Source of the DNA: an uncultured Bacilli bacterium | Lineage (GTDB): Bacteria > Bacillota_I > Bacilli_A > RF39 > UBA660 | DNA: 58,317 nt | Assembly: GCA_947624275.1 (NCBI GenBank) | Contig: CANQJR010000002.1 | Coordinates: forward strand, 1-58,317 | Reading direction: 5' to 3' | Shown here: one piece after another, positions 14,428 through 58,317 of the stretch | Position numbering within the stretch: position 1 is the stretch's first letter | Layout: every line of letters starts with the position of its first letter | The notes under the pieces: model-generated | Told to the model about the DNA's origin: nothing | What the model saw: only the letters and a program-made list of their open reading frames with translations | Databases searched by the model: none | Translations under genes and position numbers: made by a program

Positions 14428-14629
14428 ATAAAAAAGACTATTCATCCAATATAAGGACGAACAGTCTCGCGGTACCACCTTAATTCATAGTTAAACTATG
14501 CACTCAAACTCTTAACGCGAAAAAACGATTTGCTCCTCGTGGAACAAGTTCATGAATCTATACCACCAGTTTCCACCAACCACTGGCTCTCTATCAATAA
14601 TCAATTCATTACTACTCTCCACAGCAATT
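14428..14629 (-). promoter_or_regulatory. T-box riboswitch leader, Leu specifier (CUU)
   Basis: All elements lie on the minus strand. There is an AGUA S-turn element, an AGAGAG bulge and a distal CCAGUGGUUGGUGGAAACUGG. GAA-CUU-G sits in the specifier position (CUU at 14546-14548). The T-box sequence is AAUUAAGGUGGUACCGCG (14469-14486). The terminator AGACUGUUCGUCC..GGAUGAAUAGUCU is followed by U6. Confidence 0.85.
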
Positions 14630-30160: not shown

Positions 30161-30756
30161 ATGAAAAAAACAATTATCAATATTGCAGTCATCGCATCAA
30201 TATTTTTAATTTTATGTGCTGCAATCCTCAATTTGAACAAAGGCGATAAAAATAGTGATAAAAATTTGACTAAAGTTAGAGTGGCTGAAGTTGCTCATAG
30301 TCTTTTCTATGCTCCCCAATACGCTGCCATCAACAATGGCTATTTCGAAGAAGAGGGACTGGACATAGATTTGACTTTGGCAAGTGGTGCTGATAAAGTT
30401 ACGGCGGCCGTTTTATCAGGCGATGTCGACATCGGTTTTTGTGGTAGTGAAGCAACCATCTACATCTATAATGGTGGCGAAGAAGACTATTTGAAAACTT
30501 TTGCCCAACTCACTCAAAAAGATGGCAGTTTCATCGTGGCAAGAGAAAAACAAGATAACTTCACGCTTCATGATTTGCGAGGAAAATATATCATCGGTGG
30601 ACGAGAAGGTGGTATGCCTGAAATGACATTGGAATGGATATTACGCGAAAATGGCATCGATCCCCAAAAAGATGTGACCATTGATACTAGTATCAGTTTC
30701 GCAGCTATGAGTGGTTCATTCATATCAGGAATAGGTGACTACGTATCATTATTTGA
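30161..30756 (+). pseudogene. NMT1/SsuA-type ABC substrate-binding lipoprotein, N-terminal part (interrupted by island 1)
   Basis: Signal/anchor peptide, then VRVAEVAHSLFYAPQYAAINNGYFEEEGLD...GDYVSLF. After 30756 the frame runs into island sequence (DINAAKRKH*). Confidence 0.85.
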
Positions 30757-30806
30757 TATTAATGCAGCAAAAAGAAAGCACTGAGCATAAAAAAAGATGA
30801 ATCGCT

Positions 30807-31559
30807 TCATCTATCCACTATTTTTCTAATGGCTGAAATTTGAAAATCTGTATTTTTGATAAAACTCTTACAATAATCACATTTGTTACCATGTAGTGCG
30901 GCTCCACAATTAGGACAATTAGTCAATTCTTCACGATTGAAATCCTTTCTAAATTCCACTTCAAATCGCTCAATGGTAGGATTTTCTCTATTACCACTAA
31001 TTATATAGCCATCCTTGTTCAAAGTATAACTTATGTAAGAGACGACGATCATAGCTGAAGCCACTTGTTTAGCGACAGTACTATCAACCTCATACAAGAC
31101 GACCTTTTTTCGTTTTATATCATTTATAACTTTTTTCTTACCAATTTTTAAATTGAGAGCTATACCCGTGTGATATTTTTGAAATAACTGTTCAGTACTC
31201 AACAAGCGCATCTCATTATAATCCAAATTGTTATAGGCATTTTCAAAGCGATAAAATATGTCGTATAAATAATCTTTTAATGAATCGATATCCTCGATAT
31301 TAAAGCGATCTAATTCTTTTTGAGATACATCAGTATAAATATTTTTCTTGCCATGAGTCGTATCTATCTCATTGTTCTTTTTAGAATTTTGATTCACGTC
31401 ATTAAAAACGATCGTCGTTTTAAAATATTTTTCTGAATTAGCTCTTCTAATGGAGTCACAGAGAACTTTTATGATCAAGAAAAAAATGATTAGAGGAGCA
31501 AGTGAGATGGCACTATAAATTAAAAAAGTTATCAAAATAGCAATATCCACAGACAACAA
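30807..31559 (-). CDS. Membrane-anchored Tim44-like/SnoaL-fold protein with a C-terminal zinc ribbon (island 1 cargo)
   Basis: N-terminal TM and a CPNCGA...CDYC ribbon near the C-terminus. The central region resembles Tim44-like domain proteins. This assignment is from memory. Confidence 0.45.
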   Translation of the reverse strand: MLSVDIAILITFLIYSAISLAPLIIFFLIIKVLCDSIRRANSEKYFKTTIVFNDVNQNSKKNNEIDTTHGKKNIYTDVSQKELDRFNIEDIDSLKDYLYDIFYRFENAYNNLDYNEMRLLSTEQLFQKYHTGIALNLKIGKKKVINDIKRKKVVLYEVDSTVAKQVASAMIVVSYISYTLNKDGYIISGNRENPTIERFEVEFRKDFNREELTNCPNCGAALHGNKCDYCKSFIKNTDFQISAIRKIVDR

Positions 31560-31676
31560 CCTACTTTCGTATTACAATTATACCAATATTATATCACAAA
31601 TTGAACAATTATTTATTTTATCGAAACTATTCTTTTTTTATTAGTTAAAATATTGTACAATGATATCGGTGATAAT

Positions 31677-33188
31677 ATGAAAGATAATCGAGAAGTAAGA
31701 GAATATCGCGATAAAGTAGTGAAGATGACTTTTATCATTTTTTTATTGATCAGTTTTATTAGTCCCGTCACAGGAGATGATTGGAAAAACTATGTCATAG
31801 GCAATTCTGGTCTTTTAAACATCTTCAAAAACGTATGGGAAATGTATTTGACTTGGGAGGGAAGAATGGCCAGTAGATTGTTCATAGATTTACTGATACC
31901 ACATAAATTGATATTTTCTACCCTATTTGCTTTACTCATAGCATCATCAACCTACTGCATTTGTAATTTGATGGGAAAAGTGAAGAGAAAAGAGTATTAT
32001 CTAATTCCACTAATTGCTTTATTGTTAGTCAACGTCAACAGTTTTGCCCAAAACTATACTTGGAAGACGGGATGTATCACTTATACCTTTCCTGCTCTGA
32101 TGACCATTTTATACTTCGCCTATATCTTTCAAAAGAAAACGCTCTATTTCGATCTAAAAGAAATAATTGCTCTATCGATAACGGCTTTATTAATCCCAAT
32201 GTTCGTCGAAAATATCGGTCTCAGTTTTGTGTTGGGAAACATCATCTTGACCAGTTTTTACTTCATCAAAAAAAGAAAGATATCATTACCTCTAACCGGT
32301 TTCACCATCATATCAGGAGTTTCTCTAATAGCCATGCTTCTAAGCCCAGGTTCAGCCCTTAGAATGGAGACAGAAACAGCATTTGCTTCCTTGAACCTCT
32401 TCGAAAAAATAGGCACTAATATCCCCAATTTTATTGCCCATGTCTTCACTCATAACTTCATCATAACCCTCTTGATGACGATACCGATTAACTATTATTT
32501 GTCGCGCGTTTTAAAAGGAAAGAAAATTTTCAAGAACTCAGTCATCGCTCTTTTCAACATCGTTCCCCTTTTCAACATCTACTGCAATCTACATGAGATG
32601 ATTCCTGTCAATGTGACATTAGTTTTCAAACCTTATAATGGCATCTTTCTACCATCCAAGTGGTATTTCATCTTCTACTGGATCATCTTCATAACGCTCT
32701 TCATTTTAAGTATCTTTTACATCATAAAAGATCAAAAGAAAAAAGAGATTGTCCTCTTTTTCTACATCATTACCCTAATGTCCAGCATGGCAATGTTACT
32801 ATCACCAGTCTGGGGTGAAAGAGTAGTATTTTTAACCATCTTGGGCAGTATTTTAACAGTATCTATTCTGATAGAAGAAATGCATCTCAAATTATCATTT
32901 AAAAAACTCCATTTTCTATTGATCATCTTGATGATATATTATTTCAGCATCTATACTTTTTCCTATTACATAGATCGTGAAAGAGGTAATTACATCAAAA
33001 AACAGATGCGTGAAAATAGCGATGTAATCGAAGTAATAGCTAATCCCTTTCATCTAGTTTGGAATTATAATCCAGACCTCAATGGACTAATCAATAAATT
33101 GCGATTATACTATGACATACCTAAAGATAAAGAAATCAAATTTGTCTATAGAGGTATCTTTAAAGAGATAGAAGACAAAGTAAAATAA
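31677..33188 (+). CDS. Polytopic membrane protein, possible GT-C type glycosyltransferase (island 1 cargo)
   Basis: At least 12 TM segments, with a GDDW motif in the first predicted external loop as in GT-C enzymes. GGTGA RBS before ATG 31677. Confidence 0.4.
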   Translation: MKDNREVREYRDKVVKMTFIIFLLISFISPVTGDDWKNYVIGNSGLLNIFKNVWEMYLTWEGRMASRLFIDLLIPHKLIFSTLFALLIASSTYCICNLMGKVKRKEYYLIPLIALLLVNVNSFAQNYTWKTGCITYTFPALMTILYFAYIFQKKTLYFDLKEIIALSITALLIPMFVENIGLSFVLGNIILTSFYFIKKRKISLPLTGFTIISGVSLIAMLLSPGSALRMETETAFASLNLFEKIGTNIPNFIAHVFTHNFIITLLMTIPINYYLSRVLKGKKIFKNSVIALFNIVPLFNIYCNLHEMIPVNVTLVFKPYNGIFLPSKWYFIFYWIIFITLFILSIFYIIKDQKKKEIVLFFYIITLMSSMAMLLSPVWGERVVFLTILGSILTVSILIEEMHLKLSFKKLHFLLIILMIYYFSIYTFSYYIDRERGNYIKKQMRENSDVIEVIANPFHLVWNYNPDLNGLINKLRLYYDIPKDKEIKFVYRGIFKEIEDKVK

Positions 33189-33214
33189 AGAGACTTGAAT
33201 TGTCAAGTCTCTTT
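33187..33214. terminator. Bidirectional terminator inside island 1
   Basis: 12-bp stem AAAGAGACTTGA/TCAAGTCTCTTT with a 4-nt loop. Confidence 0.7.
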
Positions 33215-34135
33215 TCATCCCATTATTTGTCCACCGTTATTGTGAATGACTTGACCAGTCATGTAGCTGGAATCATCACTCGCTAAGAAGACAAAAGTAG
33301 GTGCTAGTTCATAGGGCATTGCTCCTCTAGCCATGGCCGCATCGGCTCCTAATGATGGTATTTTTTCTTTGACCCAACAAGAAGGTTGAAGTGGCGTCCA
33401 GAAAAAGCCGGGTGCGATGGCATTTACCCTGATATTTTTCAAAGCTAAATTTCTAGCTAAAGCCCTTGTAAAGCCCACGATTGCCCCTTTAGTAGTAACA
33501 TAATCAATCAATTGTGGATCTCCATAAAAAGTTGTTACTGAAGTTAGGTTGATAATAGACGAACCCGCTTTTAAATGTGGTAATACCTCTTTCGTCAAAT
33601 AGAACATGCCATATACATTGACTTTCATCGTTTGATCAAATTGTTCGTCACTAATATCTTCCAATTTGTTCTGTTGATATTGAACCCCAGCATTATTGAC
33701 TAAAATATCGATCTTGCCAAAACGATCTAAAGTTTGTTCAACGATGTATTTAGAGAACTTTTTATCGATGATATTACCAGATAATAAGAGACATTCCCCT
33801 CCCAGTTTTTCAATATATGCCTTTGTCTCTTCCGCATCTCGATGTTCGTCATAATAAGGAATGACAACTTTTGCTCCCTCTTTGGCAAAAGCGACTGCAC
33901 AAGCTCTTCCCAAACCACTATCGCCACCAGTGATGATGGCAACTTTATCTTTTAATTTGCCACTGCCCTTATAATTGGGATTGTCAAAGACTGGACGAGG
34001 ATTCATCAAGTATTCTAAACCGGGTTGACGTCGCTGTGACTGTTCTGGAGCCATAATTTCATATTCCACACTTTGAATTCCCTTTGGATAATAATAATCA
34101 TAATACTTATTGCCAAATTCATAATTATGTTTCAT
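33215..34135 (-). CDS. SDR-family oxidoreductase (YhdF/YhxC general-stress type; island 1 cargo)
   Basis: TGGDSGLGRA cofactor motif, NNAG, and the long N-terminal leader typical of the GSP39 subgroup. GGAGGAAAA RBS before ATG 34135. Confidence 0.8.
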   Translation of the reverse strand: MKHNYEFGNKYYDYYYPKGIQSVEYEIMAPEQSQRRQPGLEYLMNPRPVFDNPNYKGSGKLKDKVAIITGGDSGLGRACAVAFAKEGAKVVIPYYDEHRDAEETKAYIEKLGGECLLLSGNIIDKKFSKYIVEQTLDRFGKIDILVNNAGVQYQQNKLEDISDEQFDQTMKVNVYGMFYLTKEVLPHLKAGSSIINLTSVTTFYGDPQLIDYVTTKGAIVGFTRALARNLALKNIRVNAIAPGFFWTPLQPSCWVKEKIPSLGADAAMARGAMPYELAPTFVFLASDDSSYMTGQVIHNNGGQIMG

Positions 34136-34166
34136 AATTTTCCTCCAATCTAATATATGTAAAAAA

Positions 34167-35798
34167 TCATTTCTTTTGCCCATTTTGGGAAATTTCATCA
34201 ACTTCTTTTTGATAATGATATTTGACTAAATAATCTATTTCATATCTCTTCGTGCTACTTGTATCAAAACCGCGCTTAAAACGGAAATCTTTCACTATGT
34301 CACTTCCCGTCACATTTAAATATAAATCAACAATTATTTTATCATCGCTTTTATCAATCCAAATTTGATCTATTAAGAGCTTATCAATGTCATCGAGTAT
34401 CTCCTTAGACGACATTCTTTTCGCCAAAGCGTTCTCAACTCTTTCTAAATCTAAATCTTGACTGTGATCTCGGACTATTTCTTTCTCTTTCGTGTTCAAT
34501 TCTTCTCGCTTTTTTAATAGTTCCTCATCCGTTATAATACCATTTAAATTCAATTCTAAAAGATGATTCTTTTTAACTTGGATCTCTTTTAAAGGTTCAG
34601 AGATATCTTCATCAACATTATCCAGATAGATATCTAATAGGGTTTTGATCAATTGCTTTTTAGAAAGAAAAACATCACTCACTGCTGAAATGATGACTTT
34701 TAGTTCACTCTCTCTAACTTTAGGACTGTCACAAAATCTTTTACCACTAGTCAAATACTTGGAACAGACCCAAGTCATATCGCTCTTTTTTTTTCGAAAA
34801 TGGCGCTTATAAAATGGCTTATGACAGTGGGCACAGTATATTTTACCATTATAGATATCAGAATCGACATTTTTGGTGCGCTCATTTCGTCTACTATGGC
34901 TTTTCTGATGAGCTAAATCCCAAGTTTGTTCTGTGATGATCGGTGGTATTTTTTGAACATCCTCATAAACGATCCATTCTTCTTCAGGCAAATGTTTTAC
35001 TCTTTTAGTCATATAATCGACGACTTCTACTTTTTTTCCACAATAATAACCTTTATATTTAGGATTTTTAATGATTCTCGATATCGATGTAGAAGACCAA
35101 TTCTTGTTTTGCCTAGTCTTAATGCCATCATAATTCAGTCTTCGACTTATGGCATTGAAAGATAGATCATCAATTATGTACATATCATATATCTTCTTGA
35201 TGACTGTTGCCTCTTCTTCAATTATTTTAAGATTTCCTGTGACACGATCTTTCTTATATCCATAAAGCATATCATTTCCTAAAATGTGACCATTTTCTTG
35301 GGAACGATGCATACCAAACTTCACTCGCTCAGATAACCTCCTAACCTCGTCTTGAGCAAGAGAAGCCATTATAGTAAGTCTTAGCTCACTGTCTGGCAAA
35401 AAGGTATTTATGTTGTCATTTAAGAAGAAGACTGCCACGCCACGATTCAACAATTCACGCGTGTATTTGATACTATCAAGAGTATTTCTAGAAAAGCGCG
35501 AAATCTCTTTAGTGATTATCAAATCAAATTTATTTTTTTTACTATCCGCAATCATGCGCATAAAGTTTTCTCGTCTGACGTCACTAGTACCAGTTATTCC
35601 TTCATCGACATACCCTTCGACATATTGCCAATTGCTGTTATCTTTGATCATTTTTTCAAAATGTTCATTTTGATTATTGAGCGATTGAATTTGTTCTAAG
35701 TGATCTGTTGAAACTCTAGAATAGTAAGTGACCCGCAATTCTAAATCTTTTAGATTATATCCCATATTTAATTTTTGTCGCATTTCTAATAGATCCAT
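34167..35798 (-). CDS. Large serine recombinase (island 1 integrase)
   Basis: Resolvase catalytic domain (YSRVSTDHLEQ, DLIITKEISRFSRN), recombinase domain, Cys-rich zinc beta-ribbon (C.HC...C) and a long C-terminal coiled-coil-like region. Confidence 0.9.
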   Translation of the reverse strand: MDLLEMRQKLNMGYNLKDLELRVTYYSRVSTDHLEQIQSLNNQNEHFEKMIKDNSNWQYVEGYVDEGITGTSDVRRENFMRMIADSKKNKFDLIITKEISRFSRNTLDSIKYTRELLNRGVAVFFLNDNINTFLPDSELRLTIMASLAQDEVRRLSERVKFGMHRSQENGHILGNDMLYGYKKDRVTGNLKIIEEEATVIKKIYDMYIIDDLSFNAISRRLNYDGIKTRQNKNWSSTSISRIIKNPKYKGYYCGKKVEVVDYMTKRVKHLPEEEWIVYEDVQKIPPIITEQTWDLAHQKSHSRRNERTKNVDSDIYNGKIYCAHCHKPFYKRHFRKKKSDMTWVCSKYLTSGKRFCDSPKVRESELKVIISAVSDVFLSKKQLIKTLLDIYLDNVDEDISEPLKEIQVKKNHLLELNLNGIITDEELLKKREELNTKEKEIVRDHSQDLDLERVENALAKRMSSKEILDDIDKLLIDQIWIDKSDDKIIVDLYLNVTGSDIVKDFRFKRGFDTSSTKRYEIDYLVKYHYQKEVDEISQNGQKK

Positions 35799-36059
35799 GT
35801 CATTCACTTCTCCGCCAGATTTCTCTCTCCGCTTTCCGATATAAATAATAGGATATATAAGATTCGTCATATAGGTCTTTATTTAGAATTAAGAGGAGCT
35901 GATAATAAATATTTTTATTCATAGTACATCATATGTCAAAAAAAGTTATTTCATCAAAAGATTATGATTTATTATTGTAAACATCAATTATTAGTTTTAA
36001 TTTTTGAAGTGATATTGCACTTTAAACAATTTTTAGCGTTTTCGTATTGTAACACTGAG

Positions 36060-36471
36060 TGAACCTAATGCTTTAGAAGTAGAAAAAGAAGGTTATGGTC
36101 ATGTAGTGGCATCTCTTGGACAATTGGGTGGTGTTGTCCCATACACATCATATAATGCTAAAATCAGTTATATCAAAGAGAACAGGGATATAATTGTCAA
36201 ATTCACTCGTGCAATTCAAAAAGGATTAGATTTTGTCAATAATAGTGATAGTGAAACCATTGCCAAAGCTATTGTAAATTTCTTTCCAGATACATCATTA
36301 GATGACTTAACTAAAGTGGTAGATAGATACAAGAAACAAGATAGTTGGCCAACGACGACATCTTTTAGTAAGAAATCGTTTGACCACTTACAAGAGATAA
36401 TGACATCAGCTGGACATTTGGACAAAAAAGTTCCTTATGAAGATTTGATCTATCAAATAGATGAAAAATAA
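36060..36471 (+). pseudogene. NMT1/SsuA-type binding protein, C-terminal part
   Basis: In-frame continuation EPNALEVEKEGYGHVVASLGQLGGVVPYTSY... to a stop that overlaps the ATPase ATG at 36461. Confidence 0.85.
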
Positions 36472-37039
36472 TATCTTAACGATTAAAAATTTAAAAAAGA
36501 TATATCACGATACTAAAGGTGAAACATTAGCAATCGATGATATATCTTTGGACATCAAAGAAAAAGACTTTATATCTATTGTAGGGCCATCTGGTTGCGG
36601 TAAATCAACACTTCTATCGATTTTAGCCGGTTTAGAGACAAAATCGGATGGACAAATAATCAGTGCTGACAATTTACGAATTGGTTATATGTTACAAAGT
36701 GACTCATTGTTTCCTTGGCGAACAGTTTTAGAAAATTGTCTATTAGGCTTAGAAATAAATCGAGAACTCAATGATGAAAATAAAGAGAGAGTCATAAACT
36801 TGTTAAAATCTTATGGTCTCTATGAGTTCAAAGACAAATATCCGTGCAATCTATCTGGTGGTATGCGCCAAAGAGTTGCCTTGATCAGAACATTAGCTAT
36901 CAATCCAGATATTTTATTATTGGATGAACCTTTCTCAGCACTAGATTATCAAACGCGTCTATCACTTGCTGATGACGTAGCGAATATCATAAAAAAGGAA
37001 AATAAGACAACTATTATGGTTACTCATGACCTAGCTGAA
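36461..37039 (+). pseudogene. NitT/TauT-family ABC ATPase, N-terminal part (interrupted by island 2)
   Basis: GPSGCGKST, LSGGMRQRVAL, LLLDEPFSALD and MVTHDLAE. After 37039 the frame enters island sequence (LIFQLT*). Confidence 0.9.
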
Positions 37040-37065
37040 CTCATTTTCCAATTGACATAAATTTA
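37040..37065. repeat. Island 2 left terminal inverted repeat (attP P' arm)
   Basis: CTCATTTTCCAATTGACATAAATTTA matches the reverse complement of 40147-40172 at 20 of 26 positions in exact register (hand count). Confidence 0.75.
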
Positions 37066-38376
37066 TTTGACAACTATCCAAGCATTTGGCAAACTGCGAA
37101 TAGTGCGTTGATATCCATTCCATGGATTGTTGACGTATTTGTTATTCTCGACGAGAGCTGTAGAAGTACCACCATCCAAGTTAGCTGCATTATAAGCCCC
37201 ATAATTAGCCATTATTTTGGCAACGTCAGCATAACTTGCTCCATAACTTCCCGGTTGATTACCACCATCGATGACCAAGAACAAAACGATACCATCTTTG
37301 CGTTGACCAATGACACTGCGCGAAGTTCCCCAAGTGAAGTTTTTAACATTGGCAAACTTATTTTTACCATTGACAATTAAGAATGGTCCCCAATCCATCG
37401 CATCTCTGATACCCATCTTTAATGCTTCTTCTTTGCTCATGTTTTTGAGTACCAAACGATTGTCTTTAGTAAATCCGATGAGTCCACCACTATTGATGCC
37501 TCTTCTGAATTCGCTCAACACTTTACCATCTTTGATGACGAGACCATGGGGAATACCACCATTGCTGTTCCAATAAGGATCATAAAAACCACCAGCATTC
37601 ATTGCTATCAACGCCTTATTTTTCTTGGCGATGATTGATAGTATTTCACCATATGCTCCATCATGGGTACCCGCCCCACTCGATGTAGCAATTTTCACTT
37701 TGGAAGGATCGTATATGGCTACTAAATAACCGCGATATTTATAATTTGCGCCAATCGTCGTACCATTGATTTTAATTATTTTATATAGATCATCTTCATT
37801 TTCTTTTGAAAGAATCTGTTCTTCATATTTATTGGCATAAATTTTTTGATTGTACTCAACTTTTTCAAATTCAATTTTATTACTGCTCTCCAACTCCGTC
37901 TTAGTCTCTTCTTTAGCCTGCATCAAAGTCTCATCAATCGTCTTGGCACTGAACAACCACGTCGCAAAATATTGATGATCCTTAGTCTTCATCGCGCTAT
38001 CAATGATATAATTGCGAATCTGACTATTGCTTCCATATAGTATTAAACCAATTATTAAAAAGAGAACGACATAGAGTGAAGACAAAGCTAATTTGATCAT
38101 TTTAGAAATCATATTATTGGGCTTTTTTATCTCATCGACAATTCCATAAACTAAAAGGACACTAAATACTAAAATTCCCACAAGACAAAAAGAACTTATG
38201 CGTTCGTTGACCAAATCATAACTGTGGAGAGATATGATGTAAGTCAAGACTAAAATGGGTAATAAAATTACTGATATTAACAAAAGTTTATTATCAAAAA
38301 AAGAAAGACTATCACGAGATACTTCTTTTTTATTCTTTTCATTCATATGTCGTTGTCTAATATTGGGGTATCTCAT
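37063..38376 (-). CDS. Phosphodiester glycosidase family protein (DUF2233-type) with an N-terminal membrane region (island 2 cargo)
   Basis: C-terminal domain with AMNAGGFYDP...GGIPHGLVIKDGKV...GPFLIVNGK...NLDGGTST, typical of the family. Confidence 0.75.
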   Translation of the reverse strand: MRYPNIRQRHMNEKNKKEVSRDSLSFFDNKLLLISVILLPILVLTYIISLHSYDLVNERISSFCLVGILVFSVLLVYGIVDEIKKPNNMISKMIKLALSSLYVVLFLIIGLILYGSNSQIRNYIIDSAMKTKDHQYFATWLFSAKTIDETLMQAKEETKTELESSNKIEFEKVEYNQKIYANKYEEQILSKENEDDLYKIIKINGTTIGANYKYRGYLVAIYDPSKVKIATSSGAGTHDGAYGEILSIIAKKNKALIAMNAGGFYDPYWNSNGGIPHGLVIKDGKVLSEFRRGINSGGLIGFTKDNRLVLKNMSKEEALKMGIRDAMDWGPFLIVNGKNKFANVKNFTWGTSRSVIGQRKDGIVLFLVIDGGNQPGSYGASYADVAKIMANYGAYNAANLDGGTSTALVENNKYVNNPWNGYQRTIRSLPNAWIVVK

Positions 38377-38387
38377 GTCTTTCTCCT

Positions 38388-38942
38388 TTACTTTATTACA
38401 CCGGAATGTTCTCCATTGCTATCAGCATCGATATAACTATCATAAAATGAAGTGCTATACTTTTTGAGATCTGTATCACTCCACTCGTTATAATCATCGA
38501 TTCTTCTATTGTATTCGCGAACTAGCGAAACATAAGCATTGACGATTGCTTCATAATTATGATTTATCGCTGAACACTTCTCATCGATATCATAATCATT
38601 ATAATTTCTAGCTGAGCATTCATAACGCAATTTTTTAGTCATCGTATCCAATGCTTTGATCTGTTCTTCAATATTTTTTAATTCTTTGATATTTTGTTCA
38701 TAGCGATATTTTATATCAGAATAATACTTGGCATCAAAAACCGTTGTATCCTTTATCTGATAAGAAATCTTTTCTAAATCAATCGCATAAGAATTGTAGC
38801 TGTTCTTAATTAAGTTCGCAGCTGCATTACTCATTTTGACATCGAGGCTATAACCATCGACAAAACTGATTGAATAACCGATTACAATCAAAACAAATGC
38901 TACAATTATAGTAACACTTGAAATTACTCTCACTCTCTTCAC
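38388..38942 (-). CDS. Hypothetical membrane-anchored protein (island 2 cargo)
   Basis: 184 aa. N-terminal TM, then a helical Tyr/Asn-rich domain. 11 nt upstream of the glycosidase gene. Confidence 0.5.
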   Translation of the reverse strand: MKRVRVISSVTIIVAFVLIVIGYSISFVDGYSLDVKMSNAAANLIKNSYNSYAIDLEKISYQIKDTTVFDAKYYSDIKYRYEQNIKELKNIEEQIKALDTMTKKLRYECSARNYNDYDIDEKCSAINHNYEAIVNAYVSLVREYNRRIDDYNEWSDTDLKKYSTSFYDSYIDADSNGEHSGVIK

Positions 38943-39038
38943 GTTACTCGCCTCTCTATTATAAAGTATACAATTATTTAAATATTAAATAAAGAAAAAA
39001 ATAATAATTTTACAGTATATTTTGCTCAATTGTAAAAT

Positions 39039-40124
39039 TTAATAATGGTTTATCTCCAATTGTTTATCTAAAGAGATAATTTTAATTTTCTTTATTTTTT
39101 CTTGAACGAAATGCTCTTTGAAAGAAGAAGTCTCATTGGCAATGTTTAAGTATTTATCTAAATACCTATGACTCACACTTTTAAAATCACAATTATGATT
39201 ATGACAGATGTAATTTATGTAACATTTGCCATGGAAATAAGTCCTTTTAGTCGCCATTCTTTGGTGACAGAGGCACTCCAATTTATTTGAATAATATGCA
39301 TCGCTTTTTGTGCGCAAACGATTTTGCAATTTCTCTCTCACTTCATAATATTGCTTTTCATCAATTATTTGTGTATGTCTTCCAACTGTTTCAAAGTAAT
39401 GATTAGTATTTATTCCATATCGCACTTTACCAATGTAATTGGGATTGGTCAAAATATTAATAATGTTTTTAGTCGTCCATTGTCTGTTCTTTTTGGTGTG
39501 AACCTTTTGACCATTCAGTTTTTTAGCTATGTCTGTAATACTAGTACCATTCAAATACATGGCAAAAATGTCTTTCACTATTTTGCTCTCTGATCGTTCA
39601 ACGGTTTGAACTTTTTCGCCTTTAGAACGACTATAACCATAAGAGGGAGTAGAACTGCACAAGCTATAACCTTCTCGCACCTTTCTCTCCAAACCAACTT
39701 TGATTCTCTCCACGATGGTCTCACGTTCAAATTCGGCAAATAAACCGATTATTTTGACAAACATTCTCCCCGCTGGTGAAGCAGTATCAATTGCTTCAGT
39801 CAATGAATTAAAAGCACAATTACAAGCTTGAAACAATTCGATCAAATCGATTAAATCCTTAGTCGATCTAGTCAGACGATCTATTTTATAGACCAAAACG
39901 TTATTGACTTGGGAACTCTTGACATCAGCAATCAATCTTTGAACTTCGCTCCTGTTCAAATTTTTACCACTTATACCTTCATCAATATATATGTCATAAA
40001 TTTCCCATTCTTTTATTTTGGCATAACTCATCAGTTTTTCTCTTTGAGCTCGTACTGAATAGCCATGCTTAGCCTGTTCCTCAGTAGAAACTCTAATATA
40101 TATACCAGTTTTAAAATCACTCAT
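39039..40124 (-). CDS. Serine recombinase, short form (island 2 integrase)
   Basis: 361 aa. GIYIRVSTEEQ catalytic Ser, VYKIDRLTRS, a recombinase domain and a Cys/His-rich ribbon (CLCHQ...CYINYICHNHNC), with very little sequence after it. Confidence 0.9.
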   Translation of the reverse strand: MSDFKTGIYIRVSTEEQAKHGYSVRAQREKLMSYAKIKEWEIYDIYIDEGISGKNLNRSEVQRLIADVKSSQVNNVLVYKIDRLTRSTKDLIDLIELFQACNCAFNSLTEAIDTASPAGRMFVKIIGLFAEFERETIVERIKVGLERKVREGYSLCSSTPSYGYSRSKGEKVQTVERSESKIVKDIFAMYLNGTSITDIAKKLNGQKVHTKKNRQWTTKNIINILTNPNYIGKVRYGINTNHYFETVGRHTQIIDEKQYYEVREKLQNRLRTKSDAYYSNKLECLCHQRMATKRTYFHGKCYINYICHNHNCDFKSVSHRYLDKYLNIANETSSFKEHFVQEKIKKIKIISLDKQLEINHY

Positions 40125-40146
40125 ATTTCATTCTATTTATTTGTTT

Positions 40147-40172
40147 TAAATTTATGCTAATGCGAATATAAG
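40147..40172. repeat. Island 2 right terminal inverted repeat (attP P arm)
   Basis: TAAATTTATGCTAATGCGAATATAAG is the partner of 37040-37065. Confidence 0.75.
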
Positions 40173-40350
40173 TGAAGCAATAAGTCTCTCAGACAAAATA
40201 ATCGTCTTGTCCAAAAGGCCTTCAACCATTAAAACTGTTCATGAAATAGAGGTCGACAAAACTTTATCCCCAACCCAAAGAAGAAGGAATAAAATGTTCA
40301 ATATTTATTACGATCAAATTTGGAAGGAGATAGATAATAATGTACAGTGA
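40173..40350 (+). pseudogene. NitT/TauT-family ABC ATPase, C-terminal part
   Basis: (S)EAISLSDKIIVLSKRPSTIKTVHEIEV... The stop overlaps the permease ATG at 40340. This segment is not in the supplied ORF track because it has no start codon. Confidence 0.85.
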
Positions 40351-41131
40351 AGAACATGTTCAATTTTTAAAAAAAATAAAGCTCCATAAATTCTTGGTAC
40401 TATTAGCCCAATTCTTAACATTGATAATCTTTTTAACGATATGGGAGTTATTGTCCAAATACGAAATCATCAACCCTTTTTTATATTCATCACCAATCAA
40501 AGCTGTTCAAACCATCAGCCAATTATTCCAGAGTAACGATTTAATAAATCACATTTATGTGACTTCATATGAAACTGTCATAAGTTTCATCCTCGCTTCC
40601 ATAATTGGCTTTGGTGTCAGCACCATTCTTTGGTGGAACAGATTTATCTTTGAAGTTATCGATCCATATCTAACTGTTTTGAACTCTCTTCCCAAAGTAG
40701 CTCTTGGACCACTTATAATCATTTGGGTTGGCGCAACGACCAAATCCATCATAATAATGGCATTACTCATATCCACTTTTATTAGTATTATCAATATCTA
40801 TAATGGTTTCATATCGGTCGATAGCAATTTGATAACACTTATGAAGAGTATGAAAGCTAGTAAATTGCAAGTTTTTTACAAAGTGATATTGCCCAGTAAT
40901 TTACACAATATCATAAACGCTTTTAAAATAAATATTAGTATGTCCCTAATCGGGGTCATCATGGGAGAATTATTGGTATCAAAAGAGGGATTGGGATATT
41001 TGATCATGTATGGATCACAAGTCTTCAACATCAATTTAGTCATCACTTCAGTAATATTACTAGCAATTCTCTCCTATGTCATGTATGCAGTTATTGTGTT
41101 CATCGAAAAGAAGACGATAAAAAATCAATAA
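40340..41131 (+). CDS. NitT/TauT-family ABC permease (SsuC/TauC-like)
   Basis: 263 aa with six TM segments and a BPD-transporter EAA-like loop (LMKSMKASKLQVFYKVILP). Confidence 0.85.
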   Translation: MYSEEHVQFLKKIKLHKFLVLLAQFLTLIIFLTIWELLSKYEIINPFLYSSPIKAVQTISQLFQSNDLINHIYVTSYETVISFILASIIGFGVSTILWWNRFIFEVIDPYLTVLNSLPKVALGPLIIIWVGATTKSIIIMALLISTFISIINIYNGFISVDSNLITLMKSMKASKLQVFYKVILPSNLHNIINAFKINISMSLIGVIMGELLVSKEGLGYLIMYGSQVFNINLVITSVILLAILSYVMYAVIVFIEKKTIKNQ

Positions 41132-57955: not shown

Positions 57956-57968
57956 CAAAAAAAAATTA

Positions 57969-58070
57969 TTGGCAATGACCTATTTTCGCATACACTATCG
58001 TCGGCACTTGAGAGCTTAACTTCTGTGTTCGGGATGGGAACAGGTGTACCCTCTCAGTCATAATCACCAA
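57969..58070 (-). rRNA. rrf: 5S ribosomal RNA (short, about 102 nt)
   Basis: The reverse complement reads UUGGUGAUUAUGAC...CCUGUUCCCAUCCCGAACACAGAAGUUAAGCUC...GGUCAUUGCCAA, with terminal helix pairing. Confidence 0.9.
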
Positions 58071-58138
58071 TAAAATAGAGAGAAAATAATTCTCTGAAAA
58101 CTAAGATAATGTGTCGATCCAATCAAATTAACAATTAT

Positions 58139-58317
<179 letters not shown>

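What the first reader, a model, noticed from the sequence alone, without database searches (positions are those of the whole stretch)
37036..40176. Island 2: nucleotide-exact junctions, a TGAA core and a symmetric reconstructed attP
Both junctions share TGAA (37036-39 and 40173-76).

Joining the island ends gives TAAATTTATGCTAA-TGCGAATATAAG-TGAA-CTCATTTTCCAA-TTGACATAAATTTA. Two 26-nt arms are inverted repeats in exact register, matching at 20 of 26 positions by hand count. The outer block CATAAATTTA is identical in both arms. The arrangement is 12 nt, TGAA, then 12 nt between the outer blocks, which places the symmetry axis on the central GA.

This is the architecture expected of a large-serine-recombinase attP with a 2-bp crossover. 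The reconstructed attB (GACCTAGC-TGAA-GCAATAAGTC) also shows partial dyad symmetry. The sequence therefore supplies a complete, testable att-site set for a compact recombinase.
Basis: seen in the sequence. Interest (0 to 1): 0.65.

Follow-up and report, generated by a model that had tools for sequence, protein, structure and literature searches.

The report
Recombinase mini-island splitting a transporter gene
A 3.1-kb DNA insert carrying its own unusually short serine recombinase splits a transporter gene at one exact codon; relatives show it has been inherited with its host for a long time while both gene halves stayed intact, so it most likely still cuts itself out precisely.

Summary
TGAA stands at 37036-39 and 40173-76, and removing 37040-40176 restores a 250-aa ABC-transporter ATPase (…VTHDLAE|AISLSDKIIVLS…) that aligns end to end with uninterrupted homologues. 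The joined island ends give 26-nt inverted arms matching 20/26 around TG|AA. No contiguous 26-4-26 position in the window reaches 20.

The 361-aa protein is a large serine recombinase: resolvase and recombinase domains, a four-Cys ribbon, and best fold matches to the SPβ, Bxb1 and φC31 integrases. It lacks the coiled-coil motif.

All 15 distinct element types examined from its compact clade (312-384 aa) sit at this same codon. Every junction read out has TGAA, and the attP arms vary between elements while keeping the same axis.

Host and recombinase trees agree, which points to one old acquisition, co-divergence and one clean empty site inside the clade. The detached 56-codon 3' fragment is intact in all occupied genomes examined (dN/dS mostly 0.03-0.26).

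My reading is a vertically inherited gene-intervening element that still excises at the central GA, probably without a directionality factor. It does not look like a recently mobile island.

Excision itself was not seen, because the read data were too thin. The attB dyad is not significant. The same operon is hit by serine-recombinase elements at four sites in relatives.

The parts
37040..40176 (.). Island 2 (3,137 bp, counting one copy of the TGAA core): the segment whose removal restores the ATPase gene.
   Evidence: Elements at the same codon measure 1,846-4,152 bp in the 10 relatives measured.
37036..37039 (+). Left copy of the TGAA core. The proposed crossover dinucleotide is GA at 37037-37038. 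T37036 is the third base of the Ala192 codon, and GAA is Glu193.
   Evidence: The synonymous T is invariant in 13/13 occupied genomes but is T in only 5/12 empty ones.
40173..40176 (+). Right copy of the TGAA core (GA at 40174-40175).
37010..37065 (.). attL: host B arm 37010-37035, core, island P' arm 37040-37065 (CTCATTTTCCAATTGACATAAATTTA).
   Evidence: A Logan contig of rabbit-gut run X4 spans 36939-37197, so the integrated junction is real in an independent data set.
40147..40202 (.). attR: island P arm 40147-40172 (TAAATTTATGCTAATGCGAATATAAG), core, host B' arm 40177-40202.
39039..40124 (-). 361-aa serine recombinase with resolvase, recombinase and four-Cys zinc-ribbon domains and no coiled-coil. 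The start codon lies 48 nt from the attR core.
   Evidence: Pfam PF00239 E=7e-42 and PF07508 E=6e-22, with no PF13408 hit. R11, S13, D82, R83 and R86 are invariant; C284, C286, C307 and C312 are invariant in the 11-sequence alignment and at least 90% conserved in the 49-sequence one. AlphaFold2 model pLDDT 86 with only an 11-residue helix (333-343) where the coiled-coil would be. Foldseek top hits are 9dxd, 9dxf, 9iu2, 9tep and 4kis. dN/dS 0.07-0.46.
38388..38942 (-). 184-aa cargo protein of unknown family. The hydrophobic stretch near its N-terminus, read by eye from the translation, suggests a membrane anchor; no predictor was run.
   Evidence: No Pfam, NCBIfam or PHROG hit. Conserved next to the recombinase in L001-L004, L112 and L133 (21-49% identity).
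37063..38376 (-). 437-aa cargo protein: an N-terminal hydrophobic region (read by eye) followed by a NAGPA phosphodiester-glycosidase domain.
   Evidence: PF09992 E=1e-38. In sister elements the cargo is replaced by PAP2, an LtaS-like sulfatase, VWA, sortase or GT2 genes.
36461..37039 (+). 5' part of the ABC ATPase gene (codons 1-193, through the H-loop His189 and Glu193). In the integrated state the ORF runs on for 6 island codons (LIFQLT) to a stop at 37058-37060.
40177..40350 (+). Detached 3' part of the ATPase gene (57 codons plus stop). It has no start codon of its own and overlaps the permease start (40340).
   Evidence: It is intact in all 11 occupied genomes analysed. Between occupied genomes dN/dS is 0.03-0.26 (one pair 0.45) at dS 0.65-2.7.
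40340..41131 (+). Permease gene of the same transporter (BPD_transp_1).
30161..36471 (+). Context: the substrate-binding-protein gene of the same operon, itself split (30161-30756 and 36063-36471) by Island 1 (30757-36062), which carries a 567-aa recombinase.

Best explanation
Island 2 is a small gene-intervening element. It holds one recombinase gene and two cell-surface cargo genes, and it splits the ATPase gene of an SBP-ATPase-permease importer after codon 193, inside the H-loop.

Inferred mechanism: dimers of the 361-aa serine recombinase bind the imperfect inverted repeats at attL (37010-37065) and attR (40147-40202). The two sites pair. All four strands are cut with a 2-nt stagger at the central GA of TGAA. 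One half of the complex rotates 180 degrees and the ends are rejoined. The result is an intact 250-aa ATPase gene (attB) and a 3,137-bp circle (attP).

The enzyme descends from coiled-coil-bearing integrases, at least one of which sits on a conjugative-type element at about the same site, and it has lost the coiled-coil. I therefore expect the reaction to need no directionality factor and to be weakly reversible, as reported for engineered coiled-coil deletions of the Listeria integrase.

Shown here: the junctions, the domain content, the loss of the coiled-coil, the conserved site and axis, the co-divergence with the host, and purifying selection on both gene halves and on the recombinase. 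Inferred: that excision still happens, where exactly the cut falls, that no directionality factor is needed, and what triggers excision.
For: Exact junctions and a restored ORF.

attP dyad of 20/26, more than at any contiguous position in the window.

Same codon in all 15 distinct element types examined from the compact clade: window, L001-L004, L112, L133, L134/135, L136/137, L138-140, L141, L142, L143, L145, L146. TGAA stands at both junctions in the 13 whose junctions were read out; for L145 and L146 only the gene layout was seen.

Inner arms differ between elements (CTCATTTTCC, GTTGAGTTCT, CCTAGAGTCT, GTTATATATA, GTCATAACAT) but remain inverted repeats about the same axis. That axis is the best-scoring or tied-best in 5 of the 6 elements scanned. 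L003 has perfect 9-nt arms around CTTCAC on the recombinase strand.

The synonymous core T is invariant in 13/13 occupied genomes against 5/12 empty ones.

Occupied genomes form a single host clade with one empty member, L081. The recombinase tree shows the same three sub-clades, and recombinase and permease pairwise identities correlate (Pearson r = 0.77).

The 3' fragment is intact in 11/11 occupied genomes with dN/dS 0.03-0.26. The recombinase has dN/dS 0.07-0.46, and its catalytic residues are invariant.

The coiled-coil is absent. The compact clade is monophyletic, with long relatives outside it.

The smallest element, L141, holds only a PAP2 gene and the recombinase, which leaves no room for a conserved directionality factor.

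Published work: LI integrase lacking the coiled-coil recombines attL x attR and attP x attB alike at low yield (PMC10754689; PMC5499577).
Against: No excision product (attB or circle junction) was found. Exact scans of genome, metagenome and viral collections were empty.

Logan contigs for the window's organism are at about 3x depth. In the better-covered L002 species the island sits at the same depth as its flanks, with contigs crossing both junctions in several samples. The integrated form therefore dominates in gut populations.

No strain-level occupied/empty pair exists for this site. The closest uninterrupted ATPase is 80% identical.

Purifying selection on the gene halves could also come from homologous exchange with strains that carry the intact gene.

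φC31 integrase without its coiled-coil is inactive (PMC10754689), so activity of a natural coiled-coil-less enzyme cannot be assumed.

In one relative (L001) one arm is shifted by 1 nt, and its dyad score falls to 8/26.
Confidence: 0.62

Rival explanations
1. An active integrative mobile island. The recombinase mainly integrates a circular element (attP) into attB, and the island moves between strains.
For: The architecture is that of a serine-integrase element. A full-length relative with a coiled-coil (P0058, 54% identity) lies next to an ATPase gene cut off at about the same place, with conjugation-type genes around it (L144: AAA_10, LPD1, DpnD-PcfM). Sibling elements in the permease gene are present or absent between 99.4-99.9% identical strains (L138/L139, L135/L134). 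Cargo differs between elements.
Against: There are no transfer, replication or mobilisation genes in 3.1 kb. Recombinase and host trees agree, and all occupied genomes form one clade. No two genomes hold near-identical copies; the closest recombinase is 70% identical among 5.8 billion proteins. The coiled-coil that promotes attP x attB synapsis is missing.
Confidence: 0.2
2. A fixed relic. The element no longer recombines, the transporter gene is dead or dispensable, and the symmetry is left over from an old insertion.
For: The integrated form is the only one seen in every data set. Some relatives carry two or three recombinase elements in the same operon (L001+L094, L112), which makes repair by several separate excisions look unlikely. 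A metatranscriptome contig reads across the attL junction in the L002 species.
Against: At dS of 0.65 to above 2 a dead 56-codon fragment should have picked up stops or frameshifts, yet it is intact in 11/11 genomes with dN/dS about 0.1. The recombinase is under purifying selection with invariant catalytic residues. The arms co-vary and keep their register. A synonymous core base is frozen only in occupied genomes. L081 shows a clean empty site inside the clade.
Confidence: 0.13
3. The split gene works without DNA rearrangement. The 199-aa truncated ATPase is active, or the two parts are made separately and assemble, so the island is a neutral passenger.
For: The truncated product keeps Walker A, the signature motif, Walker B and the H-loop His189. 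This would explain why both halves are conserved while the element stays integrated.
Against: The 3' fragment has no start codon upstream of codon 204 (TTG at 40207), and I saw no ribosome-binding site by eye. From general knowledge of ABC ATPase folds, which was not tested here, the strand after the H-loop belongs to the core sheet. This reading does not explain selection on the recombinase, the arms and the core T.
Confidence: 0.05

Closest known systems
Gene-intervening elements of spore formers excised by large serine recombinases: skin (SpoIVCA) in sigK, SPβ (SprA/SprB) in spsM, gin (GirC/GirX) in gerE (PMC4191935, PMC5499854, PMC5595907)
   Same: An element with its own serine recombinase splits a protein-coding gene, and precise excision restores the reading frame. 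gin is likewise a small element without phage genes. The element is inherited with the host.
   Different: Those elements interrupt sporulation genes and excise in the terminal mother cell, with a separate directionality factor and a full-length recombinase. Here the target is a transporter ATPase in uncultured gut Bacilli with no known differentiation. No candidate directionality factor is conserved, and the recombinase lacks the coiled-coil.
Interruption elements in nif and hup genes of heterocyst-forming cyanobacteria (XisA, XisC, XisF; survey in PMC4874684)
   Same: Several independent elements, each with its own recombinase, interrupt genes of one functional unit. Recombinase phylogeny tracks the elements, persistence is long, and some elements are barely larger than the recombinase gene.
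   Different: A different phylum, mostly tyrosine recombinases (XisF is a serine one), and excision tied to heterocyst development. NCBIfam XisF scores 133 bits against a cut-off of 375, so this protein is not an XisF orthologue.
Canonical serine integrases (Bxb1, φC31, A118/LI, SPβ, TP901-1)
   Same: Catalytic, recombinase and zinc-ribbon domains. Best structural matches are 9dxd, 9dxf, 9iu2, 9tep and 4kis. The attP is an imperfect dyad of about 56 bp, attP/attB identity is limited to a short core, and the central dinucleotide is non-palindromic.
   Different: There is no coiled-coil motif: 49 residues follow the last zinc Cys, against roughly 170 in the 490-aa relative P0058. The protein is 361 aa rather than 450-610 aa. 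The outer arm motif sits at nearly the same distance in the attP and attB arms (G at position 17 versus 18, my reading), rather than the roughly 5-bp offset I recall for canonical sites.
Engineered coiled-coil deletions of LI integrase (PMC5499577, PMC10754689)
   Same: The same domain content as the natural protein here. The reported behaviour is low-yield recombination of both attP x attB and attL x attR without a directionality factor.
   Different: Those are laboratory truncations with poor activity. This is a natural, monophyletic clade under purifying selection that may have compensating changes.

Membership tests
Large serine recombinase (serine integrase) | N-terminal resolvase-type catalytic domain with the nucleophilic Ser and conserved Arg/Asp residues | tested here: met
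   PF00239 E=7e-42. R11, S13, D82, R83 and R86 are invariant in 49 sequences. TP901-1 integrase catalytic domain 3bvp E=5e-29.
Large serine recombinase (serine integrase) | Recombinase domain following the long alpha-E helix | tested here: met
   PF07508 E=6e-22, residues 178-269. The model has helix 117-150 followed by a helical domain.
Large serine recombinase (serine integrase) | Zinc-ribbon domain with four Cys | tested here: met
   C284, C286, C307 and C312 are invariant in the 11-sequence alignment and at least 90% conserved in the 49-sequence one. The model shows beta strands 291-297, 300-306 and 316-318 at pLDDT above 90. Full-length Foldseek matches to SPβ and Bxb1 integrases. Caveat: Pfam PF13408 itself gives no hit at E<=0.01.
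Large serine recombinase (serine integrase) | Long coiled-coil motif emerging from the zinc-ribbon domain | tested here: not met
   About 125-165 residues present in the 487-528-aa relatives are absent. The model has only an 11-residue helix (333-343) and a terminal hairpin. The 35-aa tail does not align to P0058.
Large serine recombinase (serine integrase) | attP is an imperfect dyad; attP and attB share only a short core with a non-palindromic central dinucleotide | tested here: met
   Arms match 20/26, the identity is TGAA only, and the centre is GA.
Large serine recombinase (serine integrase) | Unidirectional attP x attB integration, with excision needing a directionality factor | not testable with these tools
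   This needs a biochemical or in vivo assay. No conserved third gene is present in the elements.
Gene-intervening element (skin / SPβ / gin / cyanobacterial type) | Interrupts a protein-coding gene whose parts stay intact and in frame | tested here: met
   covering 11 of 11 occupied genomes analysed.
Gene-intervening element (skin / SPβ / gin / cyanobacterial type) | Carries its own site-specific recombinase and is inherited vertically | tested here: met
   Congruent host and recombinase trees, with occupied genomes forming a single clade.
Gene-intervening element (skin / SPβ / gin / cyanobacterial type) | Precise excision observed, restoring the gene | tested here: inconclusive
   In silico the restoration is exact, and one clean empty site (L081) lies inside the occupied clade. 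No excision junction appears in any read or contig set.
Gene-intervening element (skin / SPβ / gin / cyanobacterial type) | Excision coupled to terminal cell differentiation | not testable with these tools
   The hosts are uncultured gut Bacilli known only as MAGs, and no developmental programme is known for them.
Integrative conjugative or mobilisable element | Transfer or mobilisation genes (relaxase, coupling protein, type IV secretion genes) | tested here: not met
   There are only three genes and none is of that kind. The long relative P0058 does lie among such genes.
Small serine recombinase (resolvase / invertase) | About 180-200 aa, with a catalytic domain plus a C-terminal helix-turn-helix only | tested here: not met
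   The protein is 361 aa with recombinase and zinc-ribbon domains.

The most novel reading that the evidence does not exclude
A natural, monophyletic lineage of serine integrases has lost the coiled-coil directionality device. It has been kept for a long time as a factor-independent, possibly reversible DNA switch of a nutrient importer in gut bacteria with no known cell differentiation. The same three-gene operon serves as a landing pad for up to four independent serine-recombinase elements, a transporter counterpart of the multiply interrupted nif operons of heterocystous cyanobacteria.
Probability: 0.3. Interest if true: 0.8.

Novelty: new variant of a known kind. Interest (0 to 1): 0.6.

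Why it matters
If the 361-aa enzyme (312-384 aa in relatives) is active on the sites defined here, it would be a natural serine integrase without the coiled-coil. That is a direct test case for how directionality and synapsis work without that motif. It would also be a markedly smaller candidate tool than Bxb1 or φC31.

The large LSR discovery screen kept only proteins of 400-650 aa (PMC10083194), so this clade was filtered out of it.

On the biology side, it would extend "split gene repaired by excision" from sporulation and heterocyst genes to an ordinary transporter operon in gut bacteria. Thirteen natural att-site sets were read out for one conserved attB, which is useful for learning the recognition code.

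Tried and rejected
1. Exact-match scans for the reconstructed attB (genome contigs), for the host right flank (metagenome contigs), for attP (viral contigs) and for the host flank of L134 (metagenome contigs) all found nothing.

2. Logan contigs of rabbit-gut runs X1-X6 laid on the window are at about 3x and fragmentary. All listed joints have 20-31-nt sides and none lies at a junction. Only attL is spanned, by a contig of X4.

3. The better-covered L002 species (runs X7, X10, X11, X17, X20-22, X31) shows the island at flank depth and no excision or circle joint. Contigs drop rare variants, so rare excision is not excluded.

5. There is no match to phage records.

6. No riboswitch or other Rfam element lies upstream of the operon, so the substrate remains unknown. 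NCBIfam gives only sub-threshold ATPase matches (SaoA, PhnT2).

7. The promoter scan gave only weak consensus matches. One (CTGAGA-16-TATATT, 40192-40165, minus strand) spans attR, but I do not rely on it.

8. I guessed that the C-terminal 35 aa correspond to the terminal hairpin of the long relatives. BLASTP finds no alignment, so I dropped this as a claim.

9. attB dyad symmetry was rejected as not significant.

10. DNA inversion or phase variation by inversion was rejected, because the two cores are in direct orientation.

Full report
**1. The observation**

TGAA stands at 37036-37039 and 40173-40176, and these four bases are the only identity between the two junctions. Joining the island's right end (40147-40172), TGAA and its left end (37040-37065) gives two 26-nt arms. 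They are inverted repeats in exact register, matching at 20/26, and the outer ten bases match perfectly.

As a control I scored every contiguous 26-4-26 position of the 58-kb window. The mode is 7 matches, the maximum is 19 (seen once), and none reaches 20. The symmetry axis falls between G and A of TGAA, so the two bases that straddle it are GA. The flanking T and A are themselves a symmetric pair.

The claimed partial dyad of attB is weak. It scores 11/26, a value reached by about 8% of window positions, and TG|AA is not the best axis for attB.

**2. What the island interrupts**

The ORF 36461-37060 is an ABC-transporter ATPase that reads …MVTHDLAE and then six island-coded residues and a stop. 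Deleting 37040-40176 gives a 250-aa protein, …VTHDLAE|AISLSDKIIVLSKRP…. Its stop overlaps the start of the permease gene at 40340.

Uninterrupted homologues of 248-249 aa align over 99-100% of this reconstruction at up to 80% identity. At the DNA level they read through the join exactly, for example L084 …GATTTAGCTGAAGCTATT…. The junctions are therefore exact to the nucleotide, and the split lies after Glu193, four codons past the H-loop histidine.

**3. What the island carries**

All three genes are on the minus strand.

- A 361-aa serine recombinase (39039-40124).
- A 184-aa protein with no family match (38388-38942).
- A 437-aa protein with a NAGPA phosphodiester-glycosidase domain (37063-38376).

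Both cargo proteins have a hydrophobic stretch near the N-terminus, which I read by eye from the translations and did not test with a predictor. There are no phage, replication or transfer genes, and there is no match to phage records.

**4. The recombinase**

Pfam finds the resolvase catalytic domain (E=7e-42) and the recombinase domain (E=6e-22), but not the zinc-ribbon model. Even so, four cysteines (C284, C286, C307, C312) are invariant in an 11-sequence alignment and at least 90% conserved in a 49-sequence one. The catalytic residues R11, S13, D82, R83 and R86 are invariant.

An AlphaFold2 model (mean pLDDT 86) shows a beta-ribbon at 291-318, then only an 11-residue helix (333-343) and a terminal hairpin. 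Its best structural matches are full-length serine integrases: SPβ (9dxd, 9dxf, 9dxh), Bxb1 (9iu2), φC31 and the Listeria integrase (4kis, 6dnw).

Relatives at about 50% identity are ordinary 485-540-aa integrases with the zinc-ribbon Pfam domain. In the alignment they hold about 125-165 further residues after the ribbon, which is the region of the coiled-coil motif, and the compact proteins lack these. In a neighbour-joining tree the compact proteins (356-384 aa) form one clade with the long ones outside it, which suggests a single loss. I could not show that the short tail corresponds to the C-terminus of the long proteins.

**5. Relatives of the element**

I looked up 15 distinct element types from the compact clade (50-70% identity): the window, L001-L004, L112, L133, L134/135, L136/137, L138-140, L141, L142, L143, L145 and L146. 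All lie between the same permease gene and the same truncated ATPase gene. For the 13 whose junctions I read out, the insertion is at the same codon, with TGAA at both ends. For L145 and L146 only the gene layout was seen.

Element length, measured for eleven elements including the window's, runs from 1,846 to 4,152 bp. The smallest, L141, holds only a PAP2 gene and the recombinase.

Cargo differs between elements: NAGPA, PAP2, an LtaS-like sulfatase, VWA, sortase and a GT2 glycosyltransferase. All are of a cell-surface kind.

The inner arm sequences also differ between elements (CTCATTTTCC, GTTGAGTTCT, CCTAGAGTCT, GTTATATATA, GTCATAACAT). Within each element, though, the two arms remain inverted repeats about the same TG|AA axis. 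That axis is the best-scoring or tied-best in five of the six elements scanned for it. L003 has perfect 9-nt arms around CTTCAC on the recombinase strand. L001 is the exception, with a 1-nt register shift in one arm. Arms that change yet stay paired are the expected signature of sites still recognised by a dimeric protein.

**6. History**

In a permease tree all occupied genomes form one clade. Inside it only L081 is empty, with a clean ORF. The recombinase tree shows the same three sub-clades, and pairwise recombinase and permease identities correlate (Pearson r = 0.77). The closest recombinase among 5.8 billion proteins is 70% identical, so no recent spread is visible.

Across this old divergence (dS 0.65 to above 2):

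- The detached 56-57-codon 3' fragment, which has no start codon of its own, is intact in 11/11 genomes. Its dN/dS is 0.03-0.26 (one pair 0.45), like the 5' part (0.07-0.16) and like uninterrupted pairs.
- The recombinase has dN/dS of 0.07-0.46.
- The T of TGAA is a synonymous third-codon base. It is T in 13/13 occupied genomes but in only 5/12 empty ones.

Together these results argue that the split gene, the enzyme and the sites are all still in use. The simplest reading is that excision occurs and matters.

Two caveats apply. The occupied genomes are one clade, so the counts are not independent. Homologous exchange with strains carrying the intact gene could also preserve the halves.

**7. 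Mechanism**

By analogy with studied serine integrases, I propose the following. Recombinase dimers bind attL and attR. The sites pair. Both sites are cut with a 2-nt stagger at GA. One half of the complex rotates and the ends are rejoined. This yields attB (the intact gene) and a 3,137-bp circle. The cores are in direct orientation, so the outcome is deletion, not inversion.

Published work on the Listeria integrase shows that removing the coiled-coil abolishes the block on attL x attR. It leaves a low, similar activity on both attP x attB and attL x attR. φC31 integrase without its coiled-coil is dead (PMC5499577; PMC10754689).

A natural enzyme without the motif is therefore expected to need no directionality factor and to be weakly reversible. 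The two-gene element L141 fits this expectation, since it has no room for such a factor. This step is inference.

**8. What I could not show**

No excision product was seen. Exact scans for attB, attP and host flanks found nothing. Contigs of the rabbit-gut runs that hold the window's organism are at about 3x, and they confirm only the integrated attL.

In the well-covered L002 species the island is at flank depth in several ruminant samples, with contigs crossing both junctions. A metatranscriptome contig crosses attL. The integrated state therefore dominates, and rare excision can be neither shown nor excluded with assembled contigs.

The trigger, the regulation of the recombinase and the transporter's substrate are unknown. 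There is no riboswitch, and ATPase family matches are all below threshold.

**9. Context seen on the way**

The same operon is a target for serine-recombinase elements at four places.

- The binding-protein gene. This is Island 1 of the window, 30757-36062, with TGA shared at both ends and a 567-aa recombinase.
- The ATPase gene near codon 137-139.
- The ATPase gene after codon 193, which is this finding.
- The permease gene near codon 205-208.

One rabbit MAG (L001+L094) carries three of them. For the permease site, two pairs of 99.4-99.9% identical contigs differ only by the element (L138/L139 and L135/L134). For L138/L139 I read out a short shared core and a symmetric attP, so such elements have moved recently in this operon.

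A full-length relative with a coiled-coil (P0058, 54% identity) lies next to an ATPase gene cut off at about the same place, with conjugation-type genes around it. This suggests the compact elements are the reduced descendants of such an element.

**10. Comparison and verdict**

In kind, this is a gene-intervening element with a serine recombinase, like skin, SPβ or gin in spore formers and like the interruption elements of heterocystous cyanobacteria (PMC4191935, PMC5595907, PMC4874684).

It differs in four ways: the target is a transporter ATPase; the host is an uncultured gut Bacilli lineage with no known differentiation; there is no conserved helper gene; and the recombinase has no coiled-coil. 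It meets every tested feature of the large serine recombinases except the coiled-coil.

I rate it a new variant of a known kind. The picture of a recently mobile island and the attB dyad are not.

Noticed in passing
window 30161-36471: Island 1. The substrate-binding-protein gene of the same operon is split after about codon 199 (…GDYVSLFE|PNALEVEK…). TGA is shared at 30754-56 and 36060-62. The insert 30757-36062 (5,306 bp) carries a 567-aa full-length serine recombinase (34167-35870, minus strand), an SDR reductase, a DUF6056 membrane protein and one more ORF. The six bases TAATGC recur at the same offset after both cores.
   Followed up: partly
loci L001, L094, L097-L101, L103, L109, L112, L099/L100, L135, L138: In relatives the SBP-ATPase-permease operon is interrupted by serine-recombinase elements at four distinct sites: the SBP gene, the ATPase gene near codon 137-139, the ATPase gene after codon 193, and the permease gene near codon 205-208. 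MAG Lapin-024 bin108 (L001+L094) has three interruptions in one operon.
   Followed up: partly
L138 1698-5181 versus L139 about 5188; L135 versus L134: Strain-level presence or absence of a 3.48-kb element with a 459-aa (or 422-aa) recombinase in the permease gene. Flanks are 99.4-99.9% identical. For L138/L139 the empty site reads …ACGCCAATTA|GAGACATA… and the reconstructed attP has arms TTCTCGCCATAT / ATATAGCGAGAA. This shows recent site-specific movement in the same operon.
   Followed up: yes
L144 5001-8621: A 490-aa relative with a coiled-coil (P0058, 54% identity) lies next to an ATPase gene cut off at about the same place, with conjugation-type genes around it (AAA_10, LPD1, DpnD-PcfM). 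It is a likely model for the ancestor of the compact elements. Only one junction lies in the locus.
   Followed up: partly
L133, L134, L139, L141, L142, L145, L146: Cargo at the same site is swapped between lineages: NAGPA, PAP2, an LtaS-like sulfatase, VWA, sortase and a GT2 glycosyltransferase. All are envelope or surface functions. The host genes next to the permease are a SpaA-type pilin and a sortase in most loci.
   Followed up: no
window 37036 / 40173 and reconstructed attB of 13 loci: Synonymous positions near the core are frozen in occupied genomes only. The third base of codon 192 is T in 13/13 occupied genomes against 5/12 empty ones. ATA-AGT (codons 195-196) and ATT-ATG (codons 185-186) are also more uniform than in empty genomes. 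This may mark the attB footprint.
   Followed up: partly
L001 attL arm: In L001 the outer CAT motif of the P' arm lies 1 nt further from the core than in the other elements. Its dyad score drops to 8/26.
   Followed up: no
window 40165-40192 (minus strand): A weak promoter-like match (CTGAGA-16-TATATT) spans attR, with its first hexamer in host DNA and its second in the island arm, upstream of the recombinase start. I saw no Shine-Dalgarno-like sequence before the ATG at 40124 by eye.
   Followed up: no
window 14450-14628 (-), 57967-58071 (-), 58137-58317 (-): A T-box leader, a 5S rRNA gene and the 3' end of a 23S rRNA gene. No tRNA genes were found in the window.
   Followed up: no
L095 7588-14588; L096 about 7258: Two further genomes have the ATPase gene cut off at or near the same codon, but by other inserts. 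In L095 the insert is longer than 7 kb, with a recombinase only 38% identical at its far end. L096 reads …HDLSE|PRY*. The site therefore appears to be used by more than one recombinase lineage.
   Followed up: no
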